A stretch of 64,000 nt of DNA, taken from a virus. The notes under the pieces are model-generated. The model was given only the letters and a program-made list of their open reading frames with translations. It was not told the DNA's origin and did no database searches. Each line of letters starts with the position of its first letter. The first letter of the stretch is position 1. Shown piece after piece: positions 47,849 to 62,886 of this stretch. The position numbers were made by a program, and so were the translations under genes. The DNA lies in the IMG/VR virus record IMGVR_UViG_3300037041_001083, positions 15,996 through 79,995 of that record; one strand, 5' to 3'.

Positions 47849-48649
47849 CTACTTACGCCCGTATTTATTACGGAGAAAGTTCCAAACAAATGACTCAGCC
47901 TCAAAACGATCAAAGCCTTTTTTAAGCATTAATCTGTCTCTCAACTTCCTCGCTAAAACGCTTACATCATCATGTGAGCCTTCCAAATCTTCTTTCATTA
48001 CTGGTTGTGCATTGGTAACGCTTAACGATTTTTCAACGCTATCGTACCAGCGATCCGCAGTAAGTATTTCAGATTTTCCAGCTAAACTCTTTGCTAACAT
48101 ATCCACATTAGTTCCACCGTTTATAGGCTGGAAAGTTAATGCGATATTATAAATTGTAGCCTTCTTAACATAGTGGCCGCATGGACTACGTTCAACAACT
48201 TTACCTTCAACTGACTGGCAAAGTCCTTTATTCATCCCTGCTTTTTTCAATGCGTTGTGTTGCTCTACAATTTGATCGGTCGTATAAGTCATGCCGTTGT
48301 GAGTCATGGCAGTCAAACCGCCCAGTATTTCGCCTTGGCTCTTCCAAACTTTATCGTCGAACCAAGCCTTTTTTCCTACTGGTACGCCAACCATTGCAAA
48401 AGGAATGTGATTCCAGTTGAACTCTCCCATATCCATGAAAGGTGCGAAATCCAGTCCTTTTTGGATCAGGGTTTCGCCTTCAATATCCCTGTCCTCAGTG
48501 GAACAGACACCTTGAAATGGATAAACAACAGCACCATTTTTGTTTTGAGCTTTGAGTAAGTTCATTTCGATACCGCCGAACAACGCCCGAAAGCTGCCGT
48601 CAGAACGTACCATGAAGCTATTTTCGTTATGCTCGATGCTAATGCTCAT
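47849..48649 (-). CDS. Prohead protease
   Basis: GVCSTEDRD.EGE...KGLDF...FNWNH...SVEG...ALT..P.N motifs; likely ATG at 48649 after GAGGGGG. Confidence 0.85.
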   Translation of the reverse strand: MSISIEHNENSFMVRSDGSFRALFGGIEMNLLKAQNKNGAVVYPFQGVCSTEDRDIEGETLIQKGLDFAPFMDMGEFNWNHIPFAMVGVPVGKKAWFDDKVWKSQGEILGGLTAMTHNGMTYTTDQIVEQHNALKKAGMNKGLCQSVEGKVVERSPCGHYVKKATIYNIALTFQPINGGTNVDMLAKSLAGKSEILTADRWYDSVEKSLSVTNAQPVMKEDLEGSHDDVSVLARKLRDRLMLKKGFDRFEAESFVWNFLRNKYGRK

Positions 48650-48788
48650 GCTTGATCCCCCTCTTCTATCCATTTTGACTAATGTAGTAGGATAAAAACA
48701 AGGTAGTGAACGAAAAACATTGTAAGTGGTGCTAGTGATTAGAATGGAGGCAACGCTTGTTTCCTATTTCCATTCATATCTTAGCTCC

Positions 48789-49976
48789 TTAACATGGCCC
48801 TTCAAGCGTACCTTTTGAGCCTAGTGGTGGTTTCCAATCGTCCAATATAACAGGTTCATCCCAGTTCTCATTGTTGGCTTCCGCTACCCAATCAGGGTTA
48901 TTCGTGCCTTCAAATGGAGTTCCTTTATCAGCCCGTTCGTGAACATTAAGCTTCTCAGCTGATATTGTATGGTTAAATTCATTTTCATGCTTTGCTATTT
49001 CATTTACTTGGTCTGGATTGACCTTGCGTAGCGAACACCAGTGATTAGGGCCACTAAACACGCAGCCAGCGCATGAACATCTGCCCCAACCTAATTTGTA
49101 ACATGGATGAGGATTTATTTTGTGTTCAGCTATTTTTGCCCAAACTTCTTGAGTAGTCCACTTGTGTACTGGGCGATAATGGTCAATATGCCTTTGCAGC
49201 TTACCTTCTCGTGCATCATTGTCGTGACGTTCAAGCTCCTCGTATTCACCTCGCCCTTGGCTTTCCTGCCATCGTTCGCCAGTGATATACAAGGTCTTCT
49301 TGTTTTCAAATCGTGGCTGGTTATTGATTGCGAGCCTTGCCACATCAATTTTCAATGAGCCAGTACACCAGCGACCCTTACGCATATCTGCCACAGCCGC
49401 AGGGAATTTCCTTCGAGTTTGGACTTTTGATTTTACGCCACCACGGATAATTGCTTGTGTCTTGCCGTTTTCATCCTCTATTTCAATGATACAAGGATTA
49501 CTTTGTTTATTTTCCTTCAACAACTCAGCCTTAAATCCACCAATACGTCTTGATGCAAAATATTTAATACCCAGTGCTTTTGCTACAGCCTTGCAATAGC
49601 TGGGTGTGCATTTCCAATCCATGAAGGTGTGATTTGGTTCGTCTATTTCGTGATGCCACAGCTCGATTTTTTCCCTTGGACATCCGGTATCTATCAAGTG
49701 AAGTAATGCAGCCAAGCTATCCTTGCCACCACTAAACATCACAAGTATATGGTCATATTTCGAGTAGTCTAGCGTCGGTACTTGAGTTGGTGGAGGCTGG
49801 CATTGTGAGCGAGGCTTGCCTTTTATTTTGAATGTTTTTGCCGTAACTACCACTTTATTAGGTTCTGCAACTGCCTCCCAATCCTTATCACCAACCTTTT
49901 GAAACTCACCCTGCTTACGATGAGTAATGGTTCCTATTGGTCTACCAACTCGTGATTTGAACAGGAATCTAAACAT
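48789..49976 (-). CDS. PAPS-reductase-family (PP-loop, Fe-S) enzyme with N-terminal leader
   Basis: SGGKDS, RWCT..LK, GER..ES..R, HPCY.LG..R.SC..C motifs. Confidence 0.85.
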   Translation of the reverse strand: MFRFLFKSRVGRPIGTITHRKQGEFQKVGDKDWEAVAEPNKVVVTAKTFKIKGKPRSQCQPPPTQVPTLDYSKYDHILVMFSGGKDSLAALLHLIDTGCPREKIELWHHEIDEPNHTFMDWKCTPSYCKAVAKALGIKYFASRRIGGFKAELLKENKQSNPCIIEIEDENGKTQAIIRGGVKSKVQTRRKFPAAVADMRKGRWCTGSLKIDVARLAINNQPRFENKKTLYITGERWQESQGRGEYEELERHDNDAREGKLQRHIDHYRPVHKWTTQEVWAKIAEHKINPHPCYKLGWGRCSCAGCVFSGPNHWCSLRKVNPDQVNEIAKHENEFNHTISAEKLNVHERADKGTPFEGTNNPDWVAEANNENWDEPVILDDWKPPLGSKGTLEGPC

Positions 49977-49979
49977 AAT

Positions 49980-50708
49980 TTAATCCTTGTCAGGCATGTG
50001 AGGTAGTCCACGGACTTTCTTAGGCTTCAAAATATGGTGGATTACGAACTTCATTTTTTTAACAAATGTTGGACGCTGAAAAGCCTTAGCAATCCCTCTG
50101 CCTGTGCGCTTTTGCAACAACTGGTGCATTTTTTTACAGCACTCACAGTTTTCCTCTGTGCAGTTTTTCAAGTGTTCATGGGCTGATAATAATATCGCTT
50201 TATGATTTGCAGCTTCGTGTGGATTCTGAGGCAAATGCATCATTCCTTCATGGAACATTGCTGCTCCATTACTTCGGTGATATTCGTCACATTCAGCCTT
50301 TTTCACCATGCCAATCATGCGCCACTCTGAACATTTGCAGTTGGTATGGACTGCGCCTTTAAGGTGGTCAGGAACCATACCAGCAGCCCACACACGAGGA
50401 CTCTTAGGCGATCCAAAGGCATGTAGGCAAGCTTCGCAAGCATCACCAGTTATCCGAACCACCTGCGCCCGTCTGCCATATTTTTCGATAATGGCATCAA
50501 ACGATTGGGTAGCATTGGCATCAGTCAGCTCAGTACGAGCTACTGACTTCCAATTTCGGGTGTCTCGCTTCGTAGGAGTGTTTGCGAGTCGCTTGAGTTG
50601 GCCTGATAGGTACTCCATAGTCCAGTGCTTATCTCGTGCTTGTTGCACAAGGTCAGCAACCTTTTCCTTGCGATGCTCGCCCATATGCGTGATTTTCTCT
50701 ATCGGCAT
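49980..50708 (-). CDS. MuF/SPP1 gp7-like minor head protein
   Basis: W..VARTE...ACEAC...HTNCKC. Confidence 0.7.
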   Translation of the reverse strand: MPIEKITHMGEHRKEKVADLVQQARDKHWTMEYLSGQLKRLANTPTKRDTRNWKSVARTELTDANATQSFDAIIEKYGRRAQVVRITGDACEACLHAFGSPKSPRVWAAGMVPDHLKGAVHTNCKCSEWRMIGMVKKAECDEYHRSNGAAMFHEGMMHLPQNPHEAANHKAILLSAHEHLKNCTEENCECCKKMHQLLQKRTGRGIAKAFQRPTFVKKMKFVIHHILKPKKVRGLPHMPDKD

Positions 50709-53422
50709 CCAAACCTCCTCATCAACATTTTGGACTGCAACTTGAACGCAACAACATTATTTCCCGAAGCTTTATCCATGATTGATTTTCTTATTGCGCC
50801 CTTGCTTTGCATTGGTACTTCGATAAAGGATAACTTTTTCTTGGGTCGAGTGTATGCCACATACTCAACATTTCGTTCCTGCTGGACTTGATCGGGAGTT
50901 TTCGCACGACCTCGTGCTTTATCAAACAAGTCTCTATTCAAAATATAAACATTATCAGCCTCAAGCCCTTTGCACTTGTGGACACTGGATAAACGAACAA
51001 TTCCCTTGGTGTTTTCTTCGGCAAACATAGTTTCAATTTCCGCAACAATACCTTCAGGTGTTCCAGCTTTTGTATTGTCGATAAAAGTCATCACTGACTC
51101 ATATCTGTCATCAATATGGTCAACGGATGCATCCTCATGTTTACGTTTAATTTTCGCCTTTTCATGGTCAGCCCATGTATCAAGCTTGTTTACTAATTCA
51201 GGTATTGTTCTGGCTTTTAATTTCCTAATTAGTGATGCAATTCCTTTACCAATATCCCTACCTAACATTTTGCAAGGTATTCTGTCTTTCAATAACGAAT
51301 AGGTTAGCTTGACTAATGGAGCATTGTTACGACAAATAATCATATCATTTGGTAAAAAATCACCATTTTTAAAACCAACACCTTTTTCTTCGGTAACACC
51401 TTCAATGGCCCACGGCGCAACTTCAATGTGTCGTACCAATGGTTTCGCATATTCATTAATTACGCTCTTAGGACAGCGATAACATATGGACAGCGGTATT
51501 TCAGTTGCATTAAATGTTTTTACAGCCCTACTAATTCCTTTTGTATCAGCACCACTAAATCCATAAATACTCTGATAAGGATCGCCTACTCCAATAAACC
51601 TACCATTAGGAGCAAGCATTTTTGTTAATAACTTATGTTGTAATGAATTTAGGTCTTGGCAATTATGTACCAATATTCCATTAGCGTAAAAGTTATGATT
51701 ATCTTCTATGGTTAAGTCGTAAACATAATAATCTTTTAATGTATATGGTTCAACTGATTCAACAATACCTTCAGTCGGACAATCATCACCATCTATGCAC
51801 ATATTCATTTCTTGTGCAATTTTTTCAGCATTACTAAAAGCAAAACTATTACTGTACCGATATACTTTCCATCCTATTGATTGAAGGAACTCTTCTTTCT
51901 TTTTATCCTGTTCCTTACGCATGTTGTGTCTTCCACCATCAACTTCAATAGCAATCATTCTATCTGGATTAGCTATGTCAACTTTATATGCTGTTGGATA
52001 GCCGAGTCCTTTTTTAACCTTTGTAGGAATAGCATATTCAGCAATCCATCCTTCTCCTAATTCATCAAGTAGTACTTGCTGAGGAATGGTCAGTCCTGTT
52101 CCATTTCCACCTCTAATATTTTCAGTAATTGTACCTCTCCAATTACTCCTTTCCTGAAATTCAGGAGTTTCATTTTTACTACTCATTATTTCAGATAGCT
52201 TTTTCTTTCCTTCAGCACCAATTTTAAATGCTTGAGTTGTAGCAGCCAATGATTCAACTTGCATTTTCATTCCCGGATTTACTAATCCAGCTTCAATCCA
52301 TTCTTCATTAGCCCAAACTTTATGGTCAGTAGTGCAAACAAGTATATTGGTTTTGTTGTTATGCCCAATACGTTCACGACCATTTTCTATCCATTTATAC
52401 TCTTTTCTCCATTTTACCCTAATCCTAACCAATGGTTTCCTATTTAATGTTTTACTCCACTTGGTTATTTTTTTAGTTTCTTGTTCTCCAGTTTCAGTAT
52501 TATATGTAATCACTTTACCAGTAATATGCTCATCAACAATTTGTCCTATCGGCAAACTACTTCCATCTGCCATTAAAATTGGAGTTTGATAAGGCAAACA
52601 TTCATCACAAAACAAAAATTTGTATTGTGGCATTTTAATGTTATTTATCAATGGTAAATAAATCATATCGGCAAAATCCACGACATCGTGATGTTTGTTA
52701 CTTTCTGTTAATATTGCTCGTGCATTTTCAATGATCGTATCGTCATCAAAATCTTCGGAAAAATCAATGTTGAAATTTTGCATTAAATGTATCCAATTTT
52801 CCGGTGTATCTTCCATAATTCCATTTTTGTTTCCCGGAACCAATCCATGTATTTTTGCCTTTTGAACCAAATCGCTTAGTGCAAATTTCATTGACATGTC
52901 TTTAGGACTTAATCTTTCACTTATCAGGTTCAATACCTTGTAATTATCAACTTGAACTTTACCAGCAAATGAACGCCATGCTGCAAATCCCTCAGCGTGC
53001 ATTGTCTTGGCTGGCAATCCTCGTGAACTTAATTCAGTTTCAATATGTTTGTTAAATGCTAAAAATCTTGTGTTCATTTTGTCTTCTGGACTTAACAAAT
53101 CAAATGCCATTTCAATGGTACTGGATTTACCGCTTCCCGAAACAGCATCTACTAAGCAATTTCCCTTGCCATATTTAATGAATTTGAACACGGCCATCTG
53201 GTACTTGCTAGGAGTCCTGCCATCGAGCTTTGGTATTAGTTTAAGGTCAACGTCAGGCAATGCTTCTACCTCGGCTGGGATTGGCGTTTTCGAGGTATTT
53301 TCAGTGGTAATTGCCTGTGCGATGGTCTTGGGTTGCATTTCCTTTGCGGTAGGCTCAGGGTCGGCAACAACCTCGTTTGCAGTTGCGGCACTCTCATCTA
53401 ACTTCGCTATCGTAGTATTCAC
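50699..53422 (-). CDS. UvrD/Rep SF1 helicase containing an intein
   Basis: AVSGSGKS, DE|CQD, VGDPYQSIYGF, YRCP, SSVHKCKGLE, YVAYTR. Confidence 0.9.
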   Translation of the reverse strand: MNTTIAKLDESAATANEVVADPEPTAKEMQPKTIAQAITTENTSKTPIPAEVEALPDVDLKLIPKLDGRTPSKYQMAVFKFIKYGKGNCLVDAVSGSGKSSTIEMAFDLLSPEDKMNTRFLAFNKHIETELSSRGLPAKTMHAEGFAAWRSFAGKVQVDNYKVLNLISERLSPKDMSMKFALSDLVQKAKIHGLVPGNKNGIMEDTPENWIHLMQNFNIDFSEDFDDDTIIENARAILTESNKHHDVVDFADMIYLPLINNIKMPQYKFLFCDECLPYQTPILMADGSSLPIGQIVDEHITGKVITYNTETGEQETKKITKWSKTLNRKPLVRIRVKWRKEYKWIENGRERIGHNNKTNILVCTTDHKVWANEEWIEAGLVNPGMKMQVESLAATTQAFKIGAEGKKKLSEIMSSKNETPEFQERSNWRGTITENIRGGNGTGLTIPQQVLLDELGEGWIAEYAIPTKVKKGLGYPTAYKVDIANPDRMIAIEVDGGRHNMRKEQDKKKEEFLQSIGWKVYRYSNSFAFSNAEKIAQEMNMCIDGDDCPTEGIVESVEPYTLKDYYVYDLTIEDNHNFYANGILVHNCQDLNSLQHKLLTKMLAPNGRFIGVGDPYQSIYGFSGADTKGISRAVKTFNATEIPLSICYRCPKSVINEYAKPLVRHIEVAPWAIEGVTEEKGVGFKNGDFLPNDMIICRNNAPLVKLTYSLLKDRIPCKMLGRDIGKGIASLIRKLKARTIPELVNKLDTWADHEKAKIKRKHEDASVDHIDDRYESVMTFIDNTKAGTPEGIVAEIETMFAEENTKGIVRLSSVHKCKGLEADNVYILNRDLFDKARGRAKTPDQVQQERNVEYVAYTRPKKKLSFIEVPMQSKGAIRKSIMDKASGNNVVAFKLQSKMLMRRFGCR
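51662..52600 (-). mobile_element. Intein (313 aa) with in-frame Vsr/DUF559-type endonuclease
   Basis: Starts CLPYQTPILMADG, has block B CTTDHK, ends YVYDLTIEDNHNFYANGILVHN|C. Internal KVDIA...IEVDGGRH...D..KEEFL...GWKVYR. Confidence 0.92.
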
Positions 53423-54393
53423 TTGTCGTTCCCCTTCGTGCGTTCCATGAACATCGCAATGACTTTCTTTCGTTCCACCGGATGTACTGGATACTTGCTA
53501 AAAATATCGTCAAACTTCGCATCCAATGCGTGTTTGTTTTCTGGTTGCAAATAAACGTCAAGGTATTTGTTCCGCAGGAGTTCGTCAACTATTTTGTTCA
53601 AATAGTTTTCATTGTGGATTGGCACTAATTCCCATTTCTTCACTTCCTCGTCGGTTAGCTCGTGGTCGTACTCCACTACACCGTGACGAATCATTGCGTC
53701 CTTGTCTTCCATTTTTTCATCAGGATTGTAGCTGATATATCCGGGCTTAACTGCACCTACTCCAGCAGGTCGTAATCGCATACCGTATTTAAAAGTTTTC
53801 TGTGTAGGTATTACCGATGTTTCAGGCAAGCCTCGCACTGGTTTGGGAGCTGGAGGTTCAGCGATGCCTCTGGTTGCAATCGGCGTAGGTTCGGATGGTG
53901 GAGGAGCAAATGGTTTGTGCGCTGCGGTGATGCCTCTGGATACTGGTTTGGGTTCAGCACTTAAACTGGGTTTAACTTCCACAGGCACATGCTTGGCCTC
54001 AGCTCTCATCTTGGCAACCACAGCCTCAACCATAGCCACATGGTCAGCATCAGGAGCTTCACCGTAGGTTTTTTTCCACTCTCGCCAATACTTTTTATTG
54101 TCACCATGATGAAACAACGCATGAATATCCTCAAGCGTTTCATCCTTAACCTGATTCTTGGTTTCCTCGTCAGCGTCAGCCCAGCCTTCGATGTTCAGCT
54201 TGTTCAGCTCGTGGTCAAGCTCTTTGGCAGGATCAACCTTCGTGGATGCGTGGGTGTAGTTCGGTAGGTGTTTCCACTCACCACCAATTTTTTGATACCA
54301 ACCATCGGCTCTGCGAACGATTGTACCTGCTGGGAGTTCCTTGGCCTTCATCACGATGCCACGATTTGCTGGTTTGCCAAAAGTAAATTTCAT
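53419..54393 (-). CDS. Modular protein with a DarA C-terminal-like domain
   Basis: YGMRLRPAGVGAVKPG...RHGVVEYDHELTDEEVKKWELVP resembles the DarA_C pattern. It also carries the shared leader and the W..W.K.YG.AP module. Confidence 0.6.
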   Translation of the reverse strand: MKFTFGKPANRGIVMKAKELPAGTIVRRADGWYQKIGGEWKHLPNYTHASTKVDPAKELDHELNKLNIEGWADADEETKNQVKDETLEDIHALFHHGDNKKYWREWKKTYGEAPDADHVAMVEAVVAKMRAEAKHVPVEVKPSLSAEPKPVSRGITAAHKPFAPPPSEPTPIATRGIAEPPAPKPVRGLPETSVIPTQKTFKYGMRLRPAGVGAVKPGYISYNPDEKMEDKDAMIRHGVVEYDHELTDEEVKKWELVPIHNENYLNKIVDELLRNKYLDVYLQPENKHALDAKFDDIFSKYPVHPVERKKVIAMFMERTKGNDK

Positions 54394-54451
54394 CGGTTGC
54401 TCCTGACGCTAACAAGGTTCCAGAAAAAAAACGGAAGGGCTGATATGGTTT

Positions 54452-56041
54452 TTATTTGCCTTGCATTTTTGACCTTACATTTGCCTGTGTATTTCCGGTT
54501 TCTTTACCTATTTTCCATTCTAATTCAAATATTGCCGTACCTTCACGATTGTATCGGTTCATATCGCTCATGGTGGAATTTGGCCTCATAACTGTTCTAT
54601 CTTCGTACATATCCTTTAGTTTTTGATATTCAGGATGCTTGGTAATATCACCTGTTTTTGAAGTTTTAACTTCCTCTTGCACAGGTTTTTTCACTACATA
54701 CTTGGCATTTGATACTGGTTTTTGTGAATTTCTGCTCTCAACTTCGTTATCGTGCGATGTTGCTTTTGCTTTTGCCCCTTCACGAAAAGGAGTAAATTCT
54801 AATGGCTCTGAGTCATCCATTGAATCAGGAACATTTGTTACACTATCCCATGAATTATTGCCTACAAATTTTTTTGCACTTTTTATATCATTATCTGATA
54901 TATGCTTTTTAAGTTTTTGAGCCATATATTTATGTAAAGCTTCCATTGAATTTTGGTCGCCAGCTTCTCCACCATAATATCCTTGACCAAAATTGCCTGC
55001 TGCTTGATGTGCAAAATGATGATGTAAATAAGCATCCTCTGGATTTTCATGTGACTCATCATCCGCTAATCGTGCAACATGTTCAGGTAATATATTGTAC
55101 TTACTAATATAATGACGAAGTAATGGGTTTATTTTTTCTCCGGCTGCAAATTTATGTGTTTTAGCATATTCAGTTGCATTTTTTACTTCTTCACGACTAT
55201 GCCCCTTAAATGGCAATATTTGTCGAGCATCATCAGGATTACGCATAAGTTGATCGTCACGATGGATTTTTACTTTCTCGTATCGTTCCATACCACGTTT
55301 GGTAGGTTTTGCGCCTTCCTTTACCATTTGCTTTAATTCATCCAAATGCCTGTCTAGGTGCTTACAAGTGCCACCGTGATACTTACAAGCAGGACACTCG
55401 CAAGTCCATTTACCACTGGCTTTATGCTGGCCTATCACATAGTCTTTGCCGCTATCACCTTCAACAACAAATCTATTGGTGTGATTTTTGCCTTCTCCAA
55501 TCGGATCAATCATTTTGCCATGCGGTTTTATTTTCGGTGAAACCTTGAAGGTTTTTCGAGGTGCAGCTACTTCCTTGACTGGCTCTTGCTTTTCCTTTTC
55601 CTTTGGCTTGACGACAAACTTAGGAGCTGGTTCGCCAGCCTCCTCAGCCTTGTTTCTTTGTTTGGTACGTTGTGCTGGATTAGGAACGCCATGCGCCTGA
55701 ATGATCCTCTCATGTGCTGAATGGACGACTGACTTATGTGCGCTTGCCGGAGCACCACCGTATTTTTTCGCCCAGTCTCCCCAAAACTCAGCTTTACTTT
55801 GTCCACCCAAATGTACTTTTTTATGAAATGCTTCAATATCCTCGTGGGTTTCATTCATTGTTTCTTTACTAATATCCTTGGGGTCAAGGTTATGTTGTGC
55901 CAGCGCAGCATTGAGGTGTTTCTGGGCTTCAACACGAGTCCATTTGCCACCAGTTTGCTTTTCAAACATGCCTATTTTCCACTTGCGTTTCTCGCCAACC
56001 TGAGCTGCTTTAGCCTTAAACAAATTGAATAAAAATTTCAT
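54452..56041 (-). CDS. Modular SWIM zinc-finger protein
   Basis: VEGDSGKDYVI...WTCECPACKYHGGTCKH matches SWIM CxCx(n)CxH; shared leader and module are present. Confidence 0.7.
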   Translation of the reverse strand: MKFLFNLFKAKAAQVGEKRKWKIGMFEKQTGGKWTRVEAQKHLNAALAQHNLDPKDISKETMNETHEDIEAFHKKVHLGGQSKAEFWGDWAKKYGGAPASAHKSVVHSAHERIIQAHGVPNPAQRTKQRNKAEEAGEPAPKFVVKPKEKEKQEPVKEVAAPRKTFKVSPKIKPHGKMIDPIGEGKNHTNRFVVEGDSGKDYVIGQHKASGKWTCECPACKYHGGTCKHLDRHLDELKQMVKEGAKPTKRGMERYEKVKIHRDDQLMRNPDDARQILPFKGHSREEVKNATEYAKTHKFAAGEKINPLLRHYISKYNILPEHVARLADDESHENPEDAYLHHHFAHQAAGNFGQGYYGGEAGDQNSMEALHKYMAQKLKKHISDNDIKSAKKFVGNNSWDSVTNVPDSMDDSEPLEFTPFREGAKAKATSHDNEVESRNSQKPVSNAKYVVKKPVQEEVKTSKTGDITKHPEYQKLKDMYEDRTVMRPNSTMSDMNRYNREGTAIFELEWKIGKETGNTQANVRSKMQGK

Positions 56042-59000
56042 TTCTTCCCCCTACTATTTAAAACTTGAGCAGCCCGTTCAACCACAGCCTTGTGTTCGTC
56101 GTCTGGTGCGCCACCGTATTGTTTTGCCCACTTTTTCCAGTATGCTTGAGCGTTACCGCCCTTGTCAGTATGCGATACAAAAGCTTTCAAATCATCCTCA
56201 GTCTCTTTAATCACACTAGCGTCTAAATCCGCATATCCTGCTTCACTTAAAACTTTACTTAATGCGGTGGTTAAATCGGATGTTTTTTCAATAGCTGGTT
56301 TTTGAACTCCACGATTCTGAACTAATTTATCATGTATCGCATGGGTTTTTTCAGGCTTTTTTGCTGAGTCCAAATTTGGACTGTGTGACTTTTCCTCTTT
56401 AGGAGGCAACCTTTTATCGTGCTTGTGTTCAACGTACTGGTCAGGCAAATCAGGATGCTTTTTCTTCACTGATTTTGCATATGCTGCAAAGGCTTCCTCG
56501 TCCTTAGCTAAGTGAGTCAGGTGAGCATCCCTCTTACCTTTACCAGCAGCCTTCAAATGCCGCACAGCAGCGTTCCAATGCTTTTTTGCCAGCCCTTTAT
56601 TCTCGCTTGAGGCATGGTGCGCTGCGTGGCGCAAATGGTGTTCAGCGGCAGCATTATTCTCATCGGCAGTCAGCGGTTCCGTACTTGATGAACTAGGTGC
56701 TTGATCTCCATTCTCCGGAGTAATTTTGGTTTTAACTTCCGGTTTTTCCTCAGCTTTTTTTTCAGGAGCTTTACTTGATGGCTTCTTGATAGTTTCCGCT
56801 GTGTCGTCACGTTTGCTTACAACAGCATCAGCTTTGGGTTCCTCGCCCATTGTTGCATACATTTTACCGCTGGCTTTCTGGGAGCCGGGAAGTAAGCTAG
56901 GCGAATGTTTTTTGTAATTGCTATCACCATACATCGCATGTACTTTTTTGTTTTCTCGCTTTTGATAGTCAAGCACAGCCTTACCAACTTGCTCATATTC
57001 AGGCAACAAATCAGCACTTCGGTTATTTCTCATGTTATCAACGCTCATTTTGAACGCTGTAAATCCCGGCACTTCGTCATAGTCCGAGGTAACTTTCATG
57101 TTTGAATTATGTCGGCTTGCAAGTCTGGCATACTTAGTTACGTCCAGTGTACGGTCACTGATACCAACATGGATTTTGACAGGCTTATCCTGTCCAAAAC
57201 GCCATATTCTACCATACGATTGTTCGGTTTCACCCGGAGTCCAGCCAAGGTCATAGCGATACATGCCATTTGCCATCTGCATGTTCACGCCTTCCTTAAT
57301 TGACTCGTCACAGGCAACAATAATTTGTGGGCCATTTTTGTCCTTGGTATCTAGGAATGGTTCAAGCCCTTCCTTGTGACTTCCATCGTAATAAACGGCC
57401 ATTTTTTTAAGTTCAGGTGGCAAATTGTCAAATACATGTCTGGCACTGTTGATACGCTTGGTAAACACGATAAATTTACCATTTTTAGGATCAGCGAAAT
57501 GTTCCTTCATTTTTGCGTATGCGTCTTTGGCCTTCGCTGATACTTCACCGTCGAGGTTCAAAATGGCTTTTAAGGTTTGTGGTCGAAATTTTTGCAAAAA
57601 CTTCTGAGCCTGTTTTACTGGCTTGGCAAGCTCCGGCCCCTCCTCCTCGCCTTCTTCACCGTCATATCCTTTTTTCCAAGCATCAGGATTGTAGCTGTAG
57701 TCAACTCCAGCTTTATCGCAAACATCCTTGAAAGCTTTTACCTTCTTTGAATATTCATTTGGGTGGTCAACGATACCAGTCAGCGTGTTTATGGCATCAA
57801 TTACCTTGCCAGTGGGGTTTTCCTCATCCTCTTGCTCATCAGGATCACCTTGAAGCTTTCGCAACTCAGCAGCTACCTTGGGATCGGTGTCAGCGAGTTG
57901 TTGAATAGCATCCATAGCATCTGTGATGGCTGATTCATTCGCCAAGGCCTGTTTTGGCTCCATGTGAACCACGGAAGTTTTTTCATCACGCTCTGGTAAT
58001 AAGTGCATCCAATTTGTTCGGCGAATGGAAATGAAACCCTTGGCAAGCAAATCCTCTCGGAGCTGCTTTACGCCTTTGTCGCTCCATGTGTAGCCAGCCT
58101 TGGATTTTGTGAAACCGTATTGTTTGGCAAAATCATCGAGGTTCTGAGTACGTCCGGGATATAACCACGACATTTGCCCAACTACGTCAGCAGGGTCTTT
58201 GGATATAAATGTACCTGTTGCCAGCCTTTTGTAAGCTGCACCACTGAAATATTGCAATGCAATATGTCGGCCACTATCAGGGTTTTTTACCTTCTGGCAA
58301 TTATGTACTAGGACACCGTTGATACTGTAGGAAGGGTGACCTGCAACTCCAATATCGTAGTAACGACCCTCTGGGTTTCGTTCATCACTTCCTGATTCGT
58401 AAACCTCAACATTGTCCACCCTAAAGCACTCAATACTTCCTTTTTCTTTAAATCTTGCGCTTTCCTTGCGAGTAATTGGTGTGAGTAACCGTCGCACTCC
58501 ACGCACAGTTTCTTCACTGGAAATGCTAAGTCCGGCTTGTATGCCGCTGCTATCCCCGGCCTCCTCTTGCCAGTAGATATTGCTAAATTCCACACCCAAC
58601 CATTTCCCAATGCTTCCATTAACAATGCCTCTGGTTTCGTCATTCCCGTTCCATTGCCCATGCGAATTGGAGGTTTGTGACCTATTTTCTTCAATGTCCG
58701 AGTCATTTTCATCCGTGTTTTTAAATTGCTCATCGGATTTTTCTCGTTCATCCGTTTTGCAGCCCAAGGCTTTTCCATTCCTAAATGTGCTTCCGATATT
58801 TTCCTGCTTACTTCCTCGTTGTACATTTTCTCTCGTATTGATGGTTGAGTCATCCGCCATTTCGCTGAACAGGATGTGCCGCAAAAACGATTCTTGTTCG
58901 TTCCTTTCTGAAGATATTTTAGTTGAAATTCCTTCATGCACCATTCGCATCGCTTCACTTGTGTTGACAAGCCAATCTCCCTCAATAATATCCTTTGCCA

Positions 59001-60393
59001 TTACCCAACCACTCGGAGTAAGCCAAGGATGATTCAATGAACATTTTATTTCTTGCCCATTGAATCTTAATCTTATGTGCTTGTCGAGTTGCTTATTGCT
59101 AGTGCTTATTACTGGCATTTCTCCACTTGCACTTTTTACCATGTCACCAATTTTAATTTCAGCAATTCGCTTGGTAGTCCCATCAGCCATGTCAATCAAA
59201 GTATCTGGATGAAAACACTCATCCAAACTCACAAGGTCAAAATCCCCTCCCGCCAACGCTTGCGCTCGCAAATAATGCTTTGTGGGATCGGGTTCATTCT
59301 CAGCACCGTGATTGTGGGAAATAAAGTCATAGCTGGTGGTGAAAATGGTATTTGGTGGAGCATTTTTAATATCCTCAACCAATTTTTCCATGTCTCCCTT
59401 GTAATGGTTGTTTACTAAGTCACCATCAATGACAAATACGTTCATTTTGTTGTCGGTATATTCGAGTATTTTCTTAGCATTTTGATGCAGCGTCATGTTT
59501 GTAGCAACAATTAAAGGTCGTTTGACCTTACCTTGAGCCATTAAATTTATTGCATCAAATGGTAGAAGTAAACCTTTACCACCGCCCATATCAACGTCAA
59601 CAATAGCCTTGGTCATCTTGTTAAGTTTAGCAAGCACCTCAGCTTGATGCGGAAACAGCTCAATTTTACTGCTGGTTGAAGGAATATCAGGGCAATCTTG
59701 AGGTCGCAGGTGCATTGCTTGCAGGTTTATCATTTCCTGTTTTTCCCAATGCTCCTTAGCAGCCTCACCGTGTTCAGTCGCCATTCTTGCTTCGGCTTTT
59801 TCGTGGTAGTCAGCTTCGGGTGAGTTATAAATTGCCTTGTACAATTCAGCATGATCGGACTTGGTAGCAAACTCTGTTGCGCCCTTTTTTTTAAGTTTTT
59901 TGAGTTTGGGCTTTATTTCGTTTTCAGTAATCCAGTCTCGCATATCCTTCACTGTTTCAAGCGCAGGTTCCTCACCATTTGCTTTTGCATCTTCTTTGTG
60001 ATCGTGGAGGTATGATTGCAATACTTTGTTCACATCGTGGCTATCAACTGGATTTGTGCCTTCAAACTCATCACGAGTTTCTGGCCTATATTTCCAGTGT
60101 TTCCACATATGCGCTTCGTCGATAGGTGTGGTTTGTCCGAGGTAGTTGTAAATATCCTCGTTCTTCATTTCATCCTGTGGAGTGTGCTTATACGTTTTAA
60201 GCTGTCCATTATGAATAACGGACGTATGATGTTCATCAGCAGAAACAAACTTGTTTTTATATGCCGCAGGATTTTGTTCAGCATCTTTTCTGCTATCCCT
60301 ATATTCATCAATATGAATGATTTTACCATTGGGAAGCTTGCGATAGTGTGCGGTTACTTTGGCTTTTTTAATCCAATCAAACATTCTTACCAT
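56038..60393 (-). CDS. SNF2-family helicase containing an intein
   Basis: LFPHQ, DMGGGKG, DE|CQ, ATGT, KFIVFT, EGVNMQ, WTPG..EQSYGRIWRFGQ. Confidence 0.85.
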   Translation of the reverse strand: MVRMFDWIKKAKVTAHYRKLPNGKIIHIDEYRDSRKDAEQNPAAYKNKFVSADEHHTSVIHNGQLKTYKHTPQDEMKNEDIYNYLGQTTPIDEAHMWKHWKYRPETRDEFEGTNPVDSHDVNKVLQSYLHDHKEDAKANGEEPALETVKDMRDWITENEIKPKLKKLKKKGATEFATKSDHAELYKAIYNSPEADYHEKAEARMATEHGEAAKEHWEKQEMINLQAMHLRPQDCPDIPSTSSKIELFPHQAEVLAKLNKMTKAIVDVDMGGGKGLLLPFDAINLMAQGKVKRPLIVATNMTLHQNAKKILEYTDNKMNVFVIDGDLVNNHYKGDMEKLVEDIKNAPPNTIFTTSYDFISHNHGAENEPDPTKHYLRAQALAGGDFDLVSLDECFHPDTLIDMADGTTKRIAEIKIGDMVKSASGEMPVISTSNKQLDKHIRLRFNGQEIKCSLNHPWLTPSGWVMAKDIIEGDWLVNTSEAMRMVHEGISTKISSERNEQESFLRHILFSEMADDSTINTRENVQRGSKQENIGSTFRNGKALGCKTDEREKSDEQFKNTDENDSDIEENRSQTSNSHGQWNGNDETRGIVNGSIGKWLGVEFSNIYWQEEAGDSSGIQAGLSISSEETVRGVRRLLTPITRKESARFKEKGSIECFRVDNVEVYESGSDERNPEGRYYDIGVAGHPSYSINGVLVHNCQKVKNPDSGRHIALQYFSGAAYKRLATGTFISKDPADVVGQMSWLYPGRTQNLDDFAKQYGFTKSKAGYTWSDKGVKQLREDLLAKGFISIRRTNWMHLLPERDEKTSVVHMEPKQALANESAITDAMDAIQQLADTDPKVAAELRKLQGDPDEQEDEENPTGKVIDAINTLTGIVDHPNEYSKKVKAFKDVCDKAGVDYSYNPDAWKKGYDGEEGEEEGPELAKPVKQAQKFLQKFRPQTLKAILNLDGEVSAKAKDAYAKMKEHFADPKNGKFIVFTKRINSARHVFDNLPPELKKMAVYYDGSHKEGLEPFLDTKDKNGPQIIVACDESIKEGVNMQMANGMYRYDLGWTPGETEQSYGRIWRFGQDKPVKIHVGISDRTLDVTKYARLASRHNSNMKVTSDYDEVPGFTAFKMSVDNMRNNRSADLLPEYEQVGKAVLDYQKRENKKVHAMYGDSNYKKHSPSLLPGSQKASGKMYATMGEEPKADAVVSKRDDTAETIKKPSSKAPEKKAEEKPEVKTKITPENGDQAPSSSSTEPLTADENNAAAEHHLRHAAHHASSENKGLAKKHWNAAVRHLKAAGKGKRDAHLTHLAKDEEAFAAYAKSVKKKHPDLPDQYVEHKHDKRLPPKEEKSHSPNLDSAKKPEKTHAIHDKLVQNRGVQKPAIEKTSDLTTALSKVLSEAGYADLDASVIKETEDDLKAFVSHTDKGGNAQAYWKKWAKQYGGAPDDEHKAVVERAAQVLNSRGKK
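58300..59217 (-). mobile_element. Intein (306 aa) in SNF2 Walker B
   Basis: Starts CFHPDTLIDMADG, has block B CSLNHPWLTPSGW, ends YYDIGVAGHPSYSINGVLVHN|C. Confidence 0.92.
58308..58985 (-). CDS. Overprinted Vsr/DUF559-type endonuclease in the +1 frame inside the intein
   Basis: CEWC...FCGTSC zinc finger, a NUMOD3-like RKISEAHLG and YKPDLAF...VECDGYSH...D..K..VL...GW..LRFTN. Candidate start is the TTG at 58970 after GAGGGAG. Confidence 0.8.
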   Translation of the reverse strand: MREIGLSTQVKRCEWCMKEFQLKYLQKGTNKNRFCGTSCSAKWRMTQPSIREKMYNEEVSRKISEAHLGMEKPWAAKRMNEKNPMSNLKTRMKMTRTLKKIGHKPPIRMGNGTGMTKPEALLMEALGNGWVWNLAISTGKRRPGIAAAYKPDLAFPVKKLCVECDGYSHQLLARKAQDLKKKEVLSALGWTMLRFTNQEVMNETQRVVTTILELQVTLPTVSTVS

Positions 60394-60592
60394 TGAAGTA
60401 GTCCTTATTCACCTGTAGTTCGCCTTCATTACCAAGCAAAAACATTCCGTTATCAATGCCCTCGTCAATAGCTTCTGAGGAATTAAGCGAAGGTTTGGCA
60501 GCTTTAATTTTGTCCAACAAGTAGTCAAAAGCCTCATGTTCCTCTTGACTCATTCCTCCCATGCCGATGCGTAGTCCGAGTGGTGAGGTCAT
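60377..60592 (-). CDS. Hypothetical protein
   Basis: Likely start MTSPLG via ATGA coupling. Confidence 0.5.
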   Translation of the reverse strand: MTSPLGLRIGMGGMSQEEHEAFDYLLDKIKAAKPSLNSSEAIDEGIDNGMFLLGNEGELQVNKDYFNGKNV

Positions 60593-60972
60593 GGAGTCAC
60601 CTCGATAGTGAAAAGCTCTCGCATGTAAGGCCAAATGAGTATTGCGCCAGTATCAGGGTCACTTACCTCAAAACTCATCATAAAGTAGCCAGCGTCTTGA
60701 GTATCAACTGGATGCCATTTATGCCGAATAAGCCCTTTGGTTGCGTCAATAACCTCAGTGATACCTTGCACCACATGTTCAGGCTGGTTACGCCCACAAC
60801 CGTACATCTTGGCTTTTACGGTCATGCCAGTTAGGTCGATTGGTTCCTCATTGGTTACTGGAGGGCAAGGGTAAAATGATTGTTCCCAAGGAATCGGTCT
60901 GCCTGATTTTGTAAGCACCAGCTCAAGCCAAGGTGCAGTAGCTACCCTTCGGATTTGGAACGCAGCAATCAT
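60589..60972 (-). CDS. BppU-like Ig-fold virion protein
   Basis: PIDLTGMTV...IDATKG.I...W...DT..AG...F.V pattern; ATGA coupled to the cold-shock gene. Confidence 0.6.
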   Translation of the reverse strand: MIAAFQIRRVATAPWLELVLTKSGRPIPWEQSFYPCPPVTNEEPIDLTGMTVKAKMYGCGRNQPEHVVQGITEVIDATKGLIRHKWHPVDTQDAGYFMMSFEVSDPDTGAILIWPYMRELFTIEVTP

Positions 60973-61241
60973 GGTGTAAACCTCTGAATTAGTTTTATAT
61001 CCACAGCACATATGCCGTTACGGTTAGTGCTAAATGCAAACTCAACGATGTCATTTATCTGTAATGTTTTAAAACCAGCTTGAACAATGCTGTGATAGTG
61101 GCAAAATATATCCTTGCCATTATTCAACTCAGTATCGTCAGCCTTGACGAAACCATATCCAAGATTGGCATTAAACCAAACAACTTTTCCACGATACCGT
61201 TTGTCACTCTCAGGTTCAGAACGGTGGTTTGCCAAATTCAT
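60969..61241 (-). CDS. Cold-shock domain protein
   Basis: GKVVWFN..LGYGFV (RNP1), DIFCHY (RNP2), GFKTL...VEF; ATG at 61241 after GGAGG. Confidence 0.9.
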   Translation of the reverse strand: MNLANHRSEPESDKRYRGKVVWFNANLGYGFVKADDTELNNGKDIFCHYHSIVQAGFKTLQINDIVEFAFSTNRNGICAVDIKLIQRFTP

Positions 61242-62886
61242 TTTCTTGTCCTCCTGCGCCAGCTTGACCGCCCTGTTGCTGCTGTTGTTGACCCTGCTGC
61301 TGCATTTGCTGTTGTTGCTGTTCTTGTAATTGTTTTTGCTGGTTTGCAGCCTGTATGAATGGATTTGCGATAATGTTACCGCCAGCTTCATCGTCAATTT
61401 CTTCCATGCCACACATTTTGCGCTGCTCATTTACAGTGATAAATGTTGCTTTTGATACAGCTAAATCAATAACTTCTTTCTCACTTTTTCCGTAATCCCA
61501 TTCCATTGTGAGGTCAGGATCAATACGACGTAAAATCGGATCAAAAATGTGAGTCTTGAAGTGATTGAGCGAGGTTTCAAGTCCTTGCTCCTGCGCCATG
61601 CTGATTTGAGTTTCTTGGTTTGCACCTTGAAGCGCACCCTTGTTATCGCCAGCCCTCGGAGCTTCGTTGATTTCTGATGGATGCATACTGAATACTGCAC
61701 AGGCTAAGTTAGTCAGCTTTTGAACATAAAAGTCGAATAACATATCCTTGTGATTTTGTCGTAATTGATGCACAGCTAAGTCTTGAGCATCAGGCAAAGC
61801 CAATAAAGGCACCTTGAACATACCGTCGATGCCGCTCATGTTTGCTTGCAGGATATTAGTTAGGTCTACAACGTGTTTATCGTCGTAACTACCCTTCATT
61901 GCCAACAATACTTCTGTCATGTTTCCGGTTTGGAAATACTTGAGGTTTGCGCTCATTGCCATAATTTCAGCAAGGATGCAAAAAATTGCTTTCTCAGTCA
62001 GTGATCGTGGGTATCCGGCGAACCGAACATCGGTGCTGGGTAAAAATGGAGCAACGATCAATCTGCCAGTTGGGAACGTGCGAACAGGTTTTCCACCCAT
62101 TAAGTAAATATACTCAGTCTCATCAGTAATATCTATTTGATAATGGTCACTAAGCTGTTGCATGATAGCCTTCATGCCAGTGTAATTTTCTTGCCAACTT
62201 GTGTCGGTTGATAAACGAGCTTTTGTGGTCAAATACTTGATTGCCGAAAAGGTTGGGATGACATTTGCACCATCAATAGCACCAAAGGCTCTTGGAGTGC
62301 CGTACATATCAAGGCCAAGCTCAATTACTGGCCTATTTATGACTAAATGATCCTCCATTATCTTAGCCATGAAGTCGTCCAAATTAGGCTCAATATCCTG
62401 AAAAACTACGCCTTCGTTCCAATACACGTTCCAAGGCGATAGCATCATTTCTTCGGCTTCCCTGCACAGGTTTTTGTAACCGTCAGGAACAGTGAACCCC
62501 TCCTCGCCGTGTCGTCTGTGCATCACTCGAAAGCCTACTTCGCCATGAGTTGACTTACGGGCAACCTTGGCAAAGCGTGTGCATTGAAATTGGCGTTTGG
62601 ACACAATAGCTGCCAGCAGACTCGAGCGTTCGGCAATTTGCCTCAGCAGCGTGAAGCTTACTGTACCTCTGGCACTGTTGGTTCCAGCGTAGCCCTTTTG
62701 GTAGCCACCATAGTAACTCGAACCGCCATAAGCTTGTTCGGGCAATCTGGGAGCCGATGGAGTCATACCAAGGGATAAGTATTTTAAAACGTCACCAAAG
62801 CCTAACCTTCCCTCGCTACCTTCTCTGGCTCGCTTATCGAGTTCGGCTGGTGTTGGAACTTTTCGATTAACTTCATTTTTAGCCAT
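61216..62886 (-). CDS. Portal protein
   Basis: Follows the terminase; AIDGANV, YFQ.G, DM.F......CAVF.MHPSEI, S.EQGL..L, TVNE.R motifs; Gln-rich tail. Confidence 0.85.
   Translation of the reverse strand: MAKNEVNRKVPTPAELDKRAREGSEGRLGFGDVLKYLSLGMTPSAPRLPEQAYGGSSYYGGYQKGYAGTNSARGTVSFTLLRQIAERSSLLAAIVSKRQFQCTRFAKVARKSTHGEVGFRVMHRRHGEEGFTVPDGYKNLCREAEEMMLSPWNVYWNEGVVFQDIEPNLDDFMAKIMEDHLVINRPVIELGLDMYGTPRAFGAIDGANVIPTFSAIKYLTTKARLSTDTSWQENYTGMKAIMQQLSDHYQIDITDETEYIYLMGGKPVRTFPTGRLIVAPFLPSTDVRFAGYPRSLTEKAIFCILAEIMAMSANLKYFQTGNMTEVLLAMKGSYDDKHVVDLTNILQANMSGIDGMFKVPLLALPDAQDLAVHQLRQNHKDMLFDFYVQKLTNLACAVFSMHPSEINEAPRAGDNKGALQGANQETQISMAQEQGLETSLNHFKTHIFDPILRRIDPDLTMEWDYGKSEKEVIDLAVSKATFITVNEQRKMCGMEEIDDEAGGNIIANPFIQAANQQKQLQEQQQQQMQQQGQQQQQQGGQAGAGGQENEFGKPPF

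What the first reader, a model, noticed from the sequence alone, without database searches (positions are those of the whole stretch)
48789..60393. Putative capsid-packaged, co-injected enzyme toolkit between portal and prohead protease
Seen: six non-structural-looking genes (SNF2, SWIM, DarA_C-like, UvrD, MuF-like, PAPS-reductase family) are tightly packed, mostly with overlapping start/stop codons, inside the head-morphogenesis operon. They carry the K-[S/A] motif, preceded by a hydrophobic residue, that peppers the scaffold and precedes the capsid N-terminus (VRKA|L): IKKA (SNF2), LFKA (SWIM), VMKA (DarA-like), LFKS (PAPS), VKKA/IAKA (MuF) and IRKS (UvrD C-end). Established: phage P1 packages DarA/DarB (DarB has helicase motifs) for antirestriction, MuF proteins are minor head proteins, and these domain types occur in phage 'polyvalent' proteins. 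Inference: this is a dispersed polyvalent system loaded into the prohead, matured by the protease and ejected with the DNA to counter host defences.
Basis: partly seen in the sequence, partly recalled or inferred. Interest (0 to 1): 0.8.

Follow-up and report, generated by a model that had tools for sequence, protein, structure and literature searches.

The report
Leader-tagged enzyme cargo in phage head operon
An uncultured 80-kb phage keeps six or seven enzyme genes between its portal and head-protease genes, and most of them begin with a short leader ending in the same lysine site that riddles its scaffold, so they are probably loaded into the capsid, trimmed and injected with the DNA, which is a split-gene version of a known phage trick that has not been shown by experiment here.

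Summary
Six minus-strand genes at 48789-60393 sit between the portal and the prohead protease: an SNF2-like helicase, a SWIM protein, a DarA_C protein, a UvrD helicase, a MuF-like protein and a PAPS-reductase-like protein.

The motif [ILVMF]-x-K-[AS] occurs 8-11 times per scaffold and 5-6 times per protease in seven related phages, where about 1 is expected. It also marks the conserved capsid N-terminus. It matches the known HK97 maturation site, F-N-K103|S104.

The cargo proteins are not enriched in the motif overall. But four of the six carry it at residues 5-17, against 5 of 83 other proteins.

New here:
- In relatives the same units are fused, for example a 1751-aa leader-to-UvrD protein and SNF2 joined to SWIM.
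- In true polyvalent proteins (ART-PolyVal, RadC, TopoIB, SNF2) the same cassette lies between domains. The cassette is a hydrophobic stretch, K-[AS]-[KR], then a P-x-G-T...W...W hairpin.
- So the leaders are equivalent to inter-domain junctions.
- Both helicases carry inteins.

The "dispersed polyvalent system" reading is well supported. Packaging, cleavage, ejection and anti-defence function remain inferred. This scan has noted similar cut-site-plus-tag cassettes in more than 50 other phage genomes. Verdict: a new variant of a known kind.

The parts
60377..60634 (-). orf85, a small protein upstream of the helicase; probably a seventh member of the cargo block
   Evidence: Homologs sit at the same place in L006, L007 and L009. 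Two of them start with leader-like MKFPVGWFRKA and LKLNWFKKKKKAKS. In P0011 this protein is fused to the SNF2 helicase through an IRKA|R junction.
56038..60393 (-). SNF2-like helicase (1451 aa) with N-terminal leader MVRMFDWIKK|AK, a variant hairpin (residues 16-33), an intein, and the shared helical module at its C-end
   Evidence: The leader and the HYRKLPNG hairpin are conserved in the L006, L007 and L009 homologs.
58300..59217 (-). Intein in SNF2 motif II (residues C393-N698, DE|C...HN|CQKVKN)
   Evidence: Hint and Intein_splicing hits. Intein-less homologs read DESQKVKN (P0011, P0013). Coordinates.
56041..56310 (-). Shared helical module (W..W.K.YGGAP...H) at the C-end of the helicase
   Evidence: Alignment A3. 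Only 15 profile hits among 1.84 billion representative proteins.
54452..56041 (-). SWIM-finger protein (529 aa): leader MKFLFNLFK|A, hairpin 14-37, four-helix module 37-117, SWIM finger 212-229 (55355-55408)
   Evidence: AlphaFold2: leader disordered, module pLDDT about 90. Fused to SNF2 in P0011 with the leader kept inside the protein.
53419..54393 (-). DarA_C-domain protein (324 aa): leader MKFTFGKPANRGIVMK|A, hairpin 20-44, module 53-133, DarA_C domain 199-260
   Evidence: Pfam DarA_C 2.2e-10. NCBIfam DarA region 397-501, 5.7e-12. phrog_1926 and P1-like phage D6 'released from the phage upon host infection'.
50699..53422 (-). UvrD-type SF1 helicase (907 aa). It has no leader of its own. Its GTG start overlaps the stop of the DarA_C gene. 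A conserved h-x-K-S site (IRKS, residue 877) follows the helicase core.
   Evidence: In L003/L004 and P0014 the orthologous helicase is the C-terminal part of a leader-bearing 1751-aa or 1472-aa protein. The C-end site is conserved in 4 relatives.
51662..52600 (-). Intein with an in-frame DUF559 endonuclease in UvrD motif II (residues C275-N587)
   Evidence: Intein_splicing 42 bits and DUF559 1.7e-9. The intein-less allele reads FLFVDELQDL in L003. Coordinates.
49980..50708 (-). MuF-like minor head protein (242 aa) with candidate cleavage sites VKKA (135) and IAKA (206)
   Evidence: The core of about 135 aa is conserved in 5 phages with the GAVHPNCxC motif. Fold-search hits are MuF or minor-capsid proteins. 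Relatives insert hairpin-plus-ParB-like cargo between the two K-A sites.
48789..49976 (-). PAPS-reductase/DndC-superfamily protein (395 aa): leader MFRFLFK|S, hairpin 12-36
   Evidence: Pfam PAPS_reduct 3.9e-8. phrog_424 2.3e-31. NCBIfam DndC-like hits far below cut-off. Hairpin regex hit.
47849..48673 (-). Prohead protease, related to SPO1-type proteases, with invariant LLKA (39-42) and LAKS (193-196)
   Evidence: phrog_1028. 31-38% identity to annotated Herelleviridae prohead proteases. Invariant columns. 6 motifs against 0.84 expected.
47040..47840 (-). Putative scaffold (266 aa, acidic) with 10 h-x-K-[AS] sites
   Evidence: Position between the protease and capsid genes. 10 against 1.2 expected, with 8-11 in all 7 relatives at aligned positions.
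45425..46996 (-). Major capsid protein (523 aa) with a conserved N-terminal site LVRK|ALSVDSATG
   Evidence: phrog_752. The site is conserved in 6 relatives.
61216..62886 (-). Portal protein, the upstream border of the block
   Evidence: Portal PHROGs. 57-58% identical homologs in L006 and L009 at the same relative place.

Best explanation
The block is a set of capsid cargo genes, a polyvalent protein split into separate genes.

Proposed mechanism:
1. The genes are expressed late, together with the head genes.
2. Each cargo unit starts with a cassette: a short hydrophobic leader (M-basic-3 to 8 hydrophobic residues), a site h-x-K|[AS]-[KR], and a basic Trp-containing beta-hairpin (P-x-G-T-x-R-x-W...G-x-W). 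In three proteins a small four-helix module is also present.
3. The cassette brings the protein into the assembling prohead, as the T4 capsid-targeting sequence and the DarB N-terminus do.
4. The HK97/SPO1-type prohead protease cuts after the lysine, as it does in the scaffold, in itself and at the capsid N-terminus.
5. The trimmed enzymes stay in the head and enter the cell with the DNA. There they act before any phage gene is expressed. The enzymes are the SNF2 translocase with the SWIM partner, the UvrD helicase, the DarA_C protein, the DndC-like ATP-pyrophosphatase and the MuF-like protein. Their likely tasks are anti-restriction or other counter-defence and a head start for DNA transactions.

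Shown by sequence and comparison: gene order, domains, motif statistics, cassette conservation, and fused and split forms in relatives.

Inferred: targeting, cleavage, the exact scissile bond, ejection, and what the enzymes do.
For: - Conserved position between the portal and the protease in 5 related contigs.
- The motif is strongly enriched in the scaffolds and proteases of 7 relatives while control motifs are not, and it is conserved at the capsid N-terminus.
- The same tetrapeptide pattern holds the experimentally known HK97 site F-N-K103|S104.
- N-terminal placement: 4 of 6 cargo proteins against 5 of 83 others; 14 of 26 against 1 of 18 in relatives.
- Unrelated proteins share the leader and hairpin.
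- Fusions in relatives keep the cassette internally: L003/L004 1751 aa, P0011, P0014.
- In P0016 and P0018, which carry ART-PolyVal, RadC, TopoIB and a Sno-type helicase, 4 cassettes each lie between the Pfam domains.
- A DNA pattern fixing only KAKxxPxGTxRxW found 6 further distinct true cassettes in viral contigs. All had an unconstrained hydrophobic residue two places before the lysine. They sit in large proteins with TopoIB, SNF2 or NUDIX+LPD1, one of them next to a portal gene.
- The DarA_C domain matches the P1 antirestriction head protein.
- The MuF-like fold.
- Precedents: the N-terminal 30 residues of P1 DarB target a reporter to the capsid (PMC9024508); the DarA N-terminus is cut by Pro (PMC12810830); polyvalent proteins are predicted to be packaged (PMC5512222).
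Against: - There are no virion proteomics, and the phage is uncultured.
- Whole-protein motif counts in the cargo are at chance level.
- UvrD and the MuF-like protein lack an N-terminal leader in this genome.
- The MuF assignment rests on weak scores.
- The hairpin is modelled with low confidence, and the module has no fold match, so no binding partner can be named.
- The cassette occurs in phages whose proteases were not examined, so the lysine site might belong to the tag and not to a cut site.
- No promoter or terminator evidence for co-transcription rises above chance.
Confidence: 0.6

Rival explanations
1. These are late-expressed but non-packaged genes. The helicases, the DndC-like enzyme and the others act in the infected cell on replication, repair, DNA modification or defence against other phages, and merely sit in the head operon. 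The leader-hairpin cassette is a nucleic-acid-binding or protein-docking element unrelated to the capsid.
For: The domains are ordinary DNA-metabolism types. Inteins usually sit in enzymes needed for replication. Cargo proteins show no overall motif enrichment. UvrD has no leader.
Against: This does not explain several things:
- why unrelated proteins share a leader ending in the scaffold, capsid and HK97-type site at residues 5-17;
- why the block is fixed between the portal and the protease across relatives;
- why it includes MuF-like and DarA_C proteins;
- why the relatives are polyvalent proteins with ART-PolyVal and similar domains.
Confidence: 0.2
2. The proteins are packaged but mainly structural. 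Like P1 DarA and Hdf, they line the capsid interior or form an inner body. There they help head-size determination, DNA condensation or ejection. They do not act as enzymes in the host.
For: P1 DarA and Hdf bind the inner capsid surface and affect head morphogenesis (PMC12810830). The shared four-helix module could be a capsid- or scaffold-binding element. The MuF family binds the portal (PMC5512222).
Against: The catalytic motifs of both helicases are intact once the inteins are removed, and the inteins are maintained at motif II. The cargo sets vary strongly between close relatives. That fits an arms race better than a structural role.
Confidence: 0.12
3. The block is a mosaic of selfish insertions (intein- and endonuclease-bearing genes, morons) that landed in a permissive gap of the head operon, and the motif matches are chance.
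For: Two inteins and two DUF559 endonuclease reading frames lie in the block. The tetrapeptide has low information content, with about 0.4 matches per 100 residues genome-wide.
Against: The positional statistics in the window and, independently, in relatives. The fixed spacing between the lysine site and the hairpin in 16 of 18 cassettes. The conserved synteny.
Confidence: 0.05

Closest known systems
Phage-type polyvalent proteins (Iyer, Burroughs, Anand, de Souza, Aravind 2017, J Bacteriol, PMC5512222)
   Same: The same domain inventory: SWI2/SNF2 with SWIM association, UvrD, DarA, MuF, ParB, and ART-PolyVal, RadC and LPD1 in relatives. The same context next to portal and head genes. The same predicted delivery with the DNA.
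   Different: Here the units are separate genes, not one polypeptide. Processing is predicted at prohead-protease (HK97-type lysine) sites in a conserved junction cassette. The paper instead ascribes processing mainly to embedded zincin metallopeptidases. My term searches of the paper found no mention of a junction cassette.
Phage P1 Dar antirestriction system (DarA, Hdf, DdrA, DdrB, DarB, Ulx)
   Same: The DarA_C domain. A large SNF2-type helicase protein as head cargo (DarB). An N-terminal capsid-targeting signal (DarB residues 1-30). N-terminal trimming of DarA by the prohead protease (PMC9024508, PMC12810830).
   Different: No DarA-N/Hdf domain and no DarB-type methyltransferase were detected. 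The genes are clustered inside the head operon rather than scattered. UvrD, SWIM, DndC-like and MuF-like units are additional.
T4 capsid targeting sequence of internal proteins IPI-III and Alt, removed by gp21
   Same: A short N-terminal leader shared by unrelated packaged proteins, ending in the consensus site of the head protease, which also degrades the scaffold.
   Different: A different protease family and specificity (Lys|Ala/Ser instead of Glu). A conserved hairpin follows the site. The cassette also works as an internal junction in fused forms.
Ejection proteins of phiKZ-like jumbo phages such as SPN3US, with propeptides cut by the prohead protease (PMC10052503, PMC7411985)
   Same: Many head-internal proteins processed at one protease motif and ejected into the cell.
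   Different: Those are jumbo phages with T4-like proteases cutting after Glu. Here the genome is 80 kb, the protease is of SPO1/HK97 type, and the cargo consists of recognisable DNA enzymes.
HK97 capsid maturation (gp4 protease, gp5 delta domain)
   Same: The cleavage pattern: the known site F-N-K103|S104 fits [ILVMF]-x-K-[AS], and three more matches lie in the delta domain.
   Different: HK97 has no separate scaffold and no cargo genes between the portal and the protease.

Membership tests
Polyvalent proteins (Iyer et al. 2017) | Several unrelated effector-type domains in one polypeptide | tested here: not met
   In the window the units are separate ORFs. In relatives the feature is met: L003/L004 1751 aa, P0011, P0014, P0016, P0018.
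Polyvalent proteins (Iyer et al. 2017) | Domains drawn from the polyvalent inventory, and a location next to the portal/terminase head genes | tested here: met
   SNF2, UvrD, DarA_C and MuF-like in the window. ParB-like, ART-PolyVal, RadC, TopoIB and LPD1 in cassette-bearing relatives. The position is between the portal and the protease.
P1 Dar system | DarA C-terminal domain | tested here: met
   Pfam DarA_C at 41.3 bits against a cut-off of 27. NCBIfam anti_RE_DarA matches the region only, far below the equivalog cut-off.
P1 Dar system | DarA-N/Hdf capsid-binding domain and a DarB-type adenine methyltransferase fused to the helicase | tested here: not met
   No such Pfam, PHROG or NCBIfam hit in any of the six proteins.
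P1 Dar system and T4 CTS cargo | Physical presence in virions and ejection into the host | not testable with these tools
   The phage is uncultured and no proteome is available.
CTS-type capsid cargo (T4 IPs and Alt, P1 DarB) | A short N-terminal leader shared by unrelated proteins | tested here: met
   4 of 6 in the window, 14 of 26 in relatives, and homolog N-termini.
CTS-type capsid cargo (T4 IPs and Alt, P1 DarB) | The leader ends in the head protease's consensus site, which is also used in the scaffold and capsid protein | tested here: inconclusive
   The motif is identical and enriched in the scaffold and protease and equals the HK97 site. No cleavage was measured.
MuF / SPP1 gp7 head morphogenesis family (PF04233) | Match to the family profile | tested here: not met
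   No hit for the window protein. E=0.26 in 1 of 5 homologs. hhalign against Mu gp30 and SPP1 gp7 gave probability below 1%.
MuF / SPP1 gp7 head morphogenesis family (PF04233) | MuF-like fold and the HPNCxC motif, encoded near the portal, often fused to effectors | tested here: inconclusive
   The top Foldseek hits are MuF, minor-capsid or head-morphogenesis proteins with probability 0.9-1.0, but E>=4.5e-3 and model pLDDT is 66. The GAVHPNCxC motif is conserved, and relatives fuse ParB-like cargo.
SWI2/SNF2 ATPases | SNF2-type helicase core (motif II DExHxxKN, Helicase_C) | tested here: met
   The spliced motif reads DECQKVKN. Helicase_C passes. SNF2-rel_dom gives 16 bits in the window but 34.5 bits in the homolog P0011. 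The best PDB matches are SsoRad54 and RapA.
HK97/SPO1-type prohead serine protease | Homology to annotated prohead proteases, conserved His and Ser, gene upstream of the scaffold and capsid genes | tested here: met
   phrog_1028 7e-18. 31-38% identity to SPO1, CP-51 and other proteases. Invariant NWNH and SVEGK. The catalytic role of these residues is inferred.
Inteins | Hint splicing blocks, C...HN|C boundaries, and an intein-less allele in relatives | tested here: met
   UvrD: 42 bits against a cut-off of 35.8, and the intein-less L003 allele. SNF2: below the cut-off at 26.8 bits, but the boundaries are exact against P0011 and P0013.

The most novel reading that the evidence does not exclude
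The cassette (hydrophobic stretch, h-x-K|[AS]-[KR], then the P-x-G-T-x-R-x-W...W hairpin) is a portable, widely used address-and-cut signal. Many unrelated tailed phages use it to load interchangeable enzymes into the prohead and to separate them with the head protease. Under this reading, polyvalent proteins and clusters of leader-tagged genes are two forms of one plug-in delivery system. I found no description of this in the literature I could search.
Probability: 0.35. Interest if true: 0.75.

Novelty: new variant of a known kind. Interest (0 to 1): 0.55.

Why it matters
If the cassette really addresses proteins to the capsid and marks the protease cut, it gives a simple sequence rule for finding injected phage proteins in metagenomes. 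These proteins are a largely invisible class of early counter-defence factors.

It would also explain how polyvalent proteins are cut into working units: by the head protease, not only by embedded metallopeptidases.

It would also offer a short tag for loading foreign proteins into phage heads.

For this phage it predicts that two helicases, a DarA-like protein and a DndC-like enzyme are already present when the DNA enters the cell.

Tried and rejected
- Megablast of the block against cultured phages found no match.
- Related loci sought with the DarA_C protein: none.
- Whole-protein motif enrichment in the cargo was rejected; counts are at chance.
- Pfam at lax thresholds found nothing for the leaders, the module, the SWIM protein or the MuF-like protein.
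- hhalign of the MuF-like alignment against Mu gp30 and SPP1 gp7 was uninformative.
- Homolog search with the MuF-like protein gave only 2 relatives.
- Foldseek of the four-helix module against the PDB gave no significant match.
- Word-based search with one junction of P0016 found only P0016 itself.
- The promoter and terminator scan did not exceed chance.
- Literature searches for the cleavage specificity of SPO1-type proteases and for 'PptA' led nowhere.
- A secretion-signal or lipoprotein reading of the leaders was considered and rejected. The leaders are 5-16 residues long, have no lipobox, and recur inside fused proteins.

Full report
**What is there**

The window is the right-hand 64 kb of a single 79,995-bp contig. 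All structural genes run on the minus strand. In order they are:

- the nuclease half of the large terminase (62934-63989, open at the contig end);
- the portal (61216-62886);
- a cold-shock-domain protein;
- two small ORFs;
- the six genes of the finding (48789-60393);
- a prohead protease (47849-48673);
- an acidic putative scaffold (47040-47840);
- the major capsid protein (45425-46996).

The six genes are joined by overlaps of 4, 4 and 10 nt and gaps of 3 and 58 nt, and each has a plausible ribosome-binding site. A consensus scan found no promoter or terminator signal above chance. Co-transcription is therefore plausible but not shown.

**Domain identities**

- UvrD, DarA_C and PAPS_reduct pass the Pfam cut-offs.
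- The DarA_C region also matches NCBIfam 'antirestriction phage head protein DarA' (region only). It also matches the P1-like phage D6 gene annotated 'released from the phage upon host infection'.
- The 1451-aa protein is an SNF2-type ATPase. Helicase_C passes. The spliced motif II reads DECQKVKN. The best PDB matches are SsoRad54 and RapA. The intein-less homolog P0011 passes SNF2-rel_dom.
- The 529-aa protein has a CxCxnCxH finger. A homolog gives SWIM just below the cut-off.
- The 242-aa protein is MuF-like only by fold and motif. An AlphaFold2 model (pLDDT 66, core 80-90) retrieves almost only MuF, minor-capsid and head-morphogenesis proteins from BFVD, with probability 0.9-1.0 but E>=4.5e-3. 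Profile comparisons are negative or marginal.
- Both helicases are interrupted by inteins at the same place, after the DE of motif II. The boundaries are confirmed by intein-less alleles in relatives.

**The motif**

[ILVMF]-x-K-[AS] occurs 102 times in 25,873 residues genome-wide.

- The scaffold has 10 (1.2 expected) and the protease has 6 (0.84 expected). No shuffle reached either count.
- The enrichment is reproduced in seven scaffolds (8-11 each) and six proteases (5-6 each) of related phages, at aligned positions. Five control tetrapeptide patterns are not enriched.
- The capsid protein has one conserved site, LVRK-ALSVDSATG, at residues 13-16.
- The protease has invariant LLKA and LAKS.
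- The experimentally known HK97 maturation site, K103/S104 (PMC10275583), reads F-N-K|S. The HK97 delta domain holds three more matches.

The pattern is therefore that of an HK97-type head protease, and the cut is most likely between K and A/S.

The six cargo proteins are not richer in the motif than tail proteins. What is non-random is its position:

- Four of the six carry it within the first 17 residues, against 5 of 83 other proteins, one of which is the capsid protein (P about 2e-4 to 7e-4).
- In relatives, which played no part in defining the motif, 14 of 26 ORFs between the portal and the protease have such a leader. Only 1 of 18 downstream of the capsid gene does (P=8e-4).

**The cassette**

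Behind the site lies a basic hairpin with two aromatic positions (P-x-G-T-x-R-x-W-x-G-x-Y-x-K...G-x-W-x-x-V). It is clear in the DarA_C and PAPS-reductase-like proteins and divergent in the SWIM and SNF2 proteins.

Three proteins also share a module of about 80 residues (W..W.K.YGGAP...H). It sits at the C-end of SNF2 and behind the hairpin in the SWIM and DarA_C proteins. AlphaFold2 models a disordered leader, a weak hairpin and a confident four-helix bundle. The bundle has no PDB fold match and no Pfam match. A profile of leader, hairpin and module finds only 15 proteins among 1.84 billion representatives.

**Relatives decide the reading**

Five contigs with 66-88% identical capsid proteins keep the order portal, small ORFs, SNF2, MuF-like, variable cargo, protease, scaffold, capsid. 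The cargo differs between them, and units are fused or split:

- In L003/L004 a 1751-aa protein starts with the DarA_C protein's leader, hairpin and module and ends in the UvrD helicase.
- Its MuF-like protein carries a hairpin-led ParB-like insert between two K-A sites. In the window these two sites are adjacent.
- P0011 fuses orf85, SNF2 and the SWIM protein and keeps 'MKFKIIMKARK' inside the chain.
- P0014 has three cassettes in front of a zincin-like unit, a ParB-like unit and an intein-bearing UvrD.
- P0016 and P0018 are true polyvalent proteins (ART-PolyVal, RadC, Sno-type helicase, TopoIB), each with four cassettes lying between the Pfam domains.

In 16 of 18 hairpins found by a regex that ignored the upstream residues, h-x-K-[ASG]-[KR] precedes P-x-G-T at a fixed distance.

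A DNA pattern fixing only KAKxxPxGTxRxW found ten places in IMG/VR. Seven are true in-frame cassettes, six of them distinct. All have the unconstrained hydrophobic residue two places before the lysine and the second Trp. They sit in large proteins carrying TopoIB, SNF2 or NUDIX+LPD1, and one is next to a portal gene.

N-terminal leaders of split genes and internal junctions of polyvalent proteins are therefore the same element.

**Interpretation**

The most economical reading has three parts:

- The cassette addresses a unit to the prohead.
- It marks where the head protease cuts.
- The block encodes proteins that travel in the capsid and enter the cell with the DNA.

The precedents are direct:

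- the T4 capsid-targeting sequence;
- the N-terminal 30 residues of P1 DarB, which suffice to load a reporter (PMC9024508);
- DarA, trimmed by the P1 protease (PMC12810830);
- the polyvalent-protein hypothesis (PMC5512222).

That paper ascribes processing mainly to embedded metallopeptidases, and it notes assemblin-like peptidases at some C-termini. My term searches of it found no junction cassette.

None of targeting, cleavage, ejection or function is shown here. UvrD and the MuF-like protein have no leader of their own in this genome. UvrD may ride with a partner or may not be packaged. MuF-family proteins are thought to enter heads through the portal. I put 0.6 on the packaged-cargo reading, 0.2 on non-packaged late enzymes, 0.12 on a mainly structural role and 0.05 on chance.

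**Novelty**

The kind is known: packaged anti-defence cargo, polyvalent proteins, and leaders removed by the head protease. What is new is the split-gene form, the lysine-site-plus-hairpin cassette shared with polyvalent junctions, and the link to an HK97-type site.

This scan has already noted comparable cut-site-plus-tag cassettes in more than 50 other phage genomes. Those are unchecked AI notes and were not used as evidence.

**Limits**

Noticed in passing
window 58300-59217 and 51662-52600: Both helicases carry an intein at the same spot (after the DE of motif II). The UvrD intein has an in-frame DUF559 endonuclease. The SNF2 intein has none in frame, but the overlapping ORF 58308-58985 in another frame gives a DUF559 hit (E=2.9e-5).
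   Followed up: partly
window 60969-61430: A cold-shock-domain protein is encoded directly after the portal; its real start is probably near residue 64. A homolog sits at the same place in L006. It may be another nucleic-acid-binding head component.
   Followed up: no
window 32680-33768: A 362-aa protein among the neck and tail genes has 6 h-x-K-[AS] sites against 1.5 expected (p=0.002). It has no PHROG hit. It could be another protease substrate.
   Followed up: partly
window 62934-64000: Only the nuclease half of the large terminase is present, and its frame is open to the contig end. The other contig end starts with unrelated genes. The contig may therefore be incomplete, or the ATPase half may be encoded elsewhere.
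   Followed up: no
window 49980-50708 compared with L001:627-1991 and L004:7917-9641: The MuF-like protein looks like a deletion derivative of a MuF-hairpin-ParB fusion. The two K-A sites that flank the ParB-like cassette in relatives are adjacent here. A conserved tail, KAF..F..M[KR]FVI..LKPKK, remains.
   Followed up: partly
L018:5952-10331: In an unrelated 119-kb viral contig, a cassette-bearing 1173-aa protein (NUDIX + LPD1) is followed by a gene with an S-adenosylmethionine lyase domain, a known anti-restriction activity.
   Followed up: no
L022 (HK97 gp5, residues 1-104): The HK97 delta domain has four matches to [ILVMF]-x-K-[AS] (IQKA, LTKS, LIKS, FNKS). The last one is the known K103/S104 maturation site.
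   Followed up: yes
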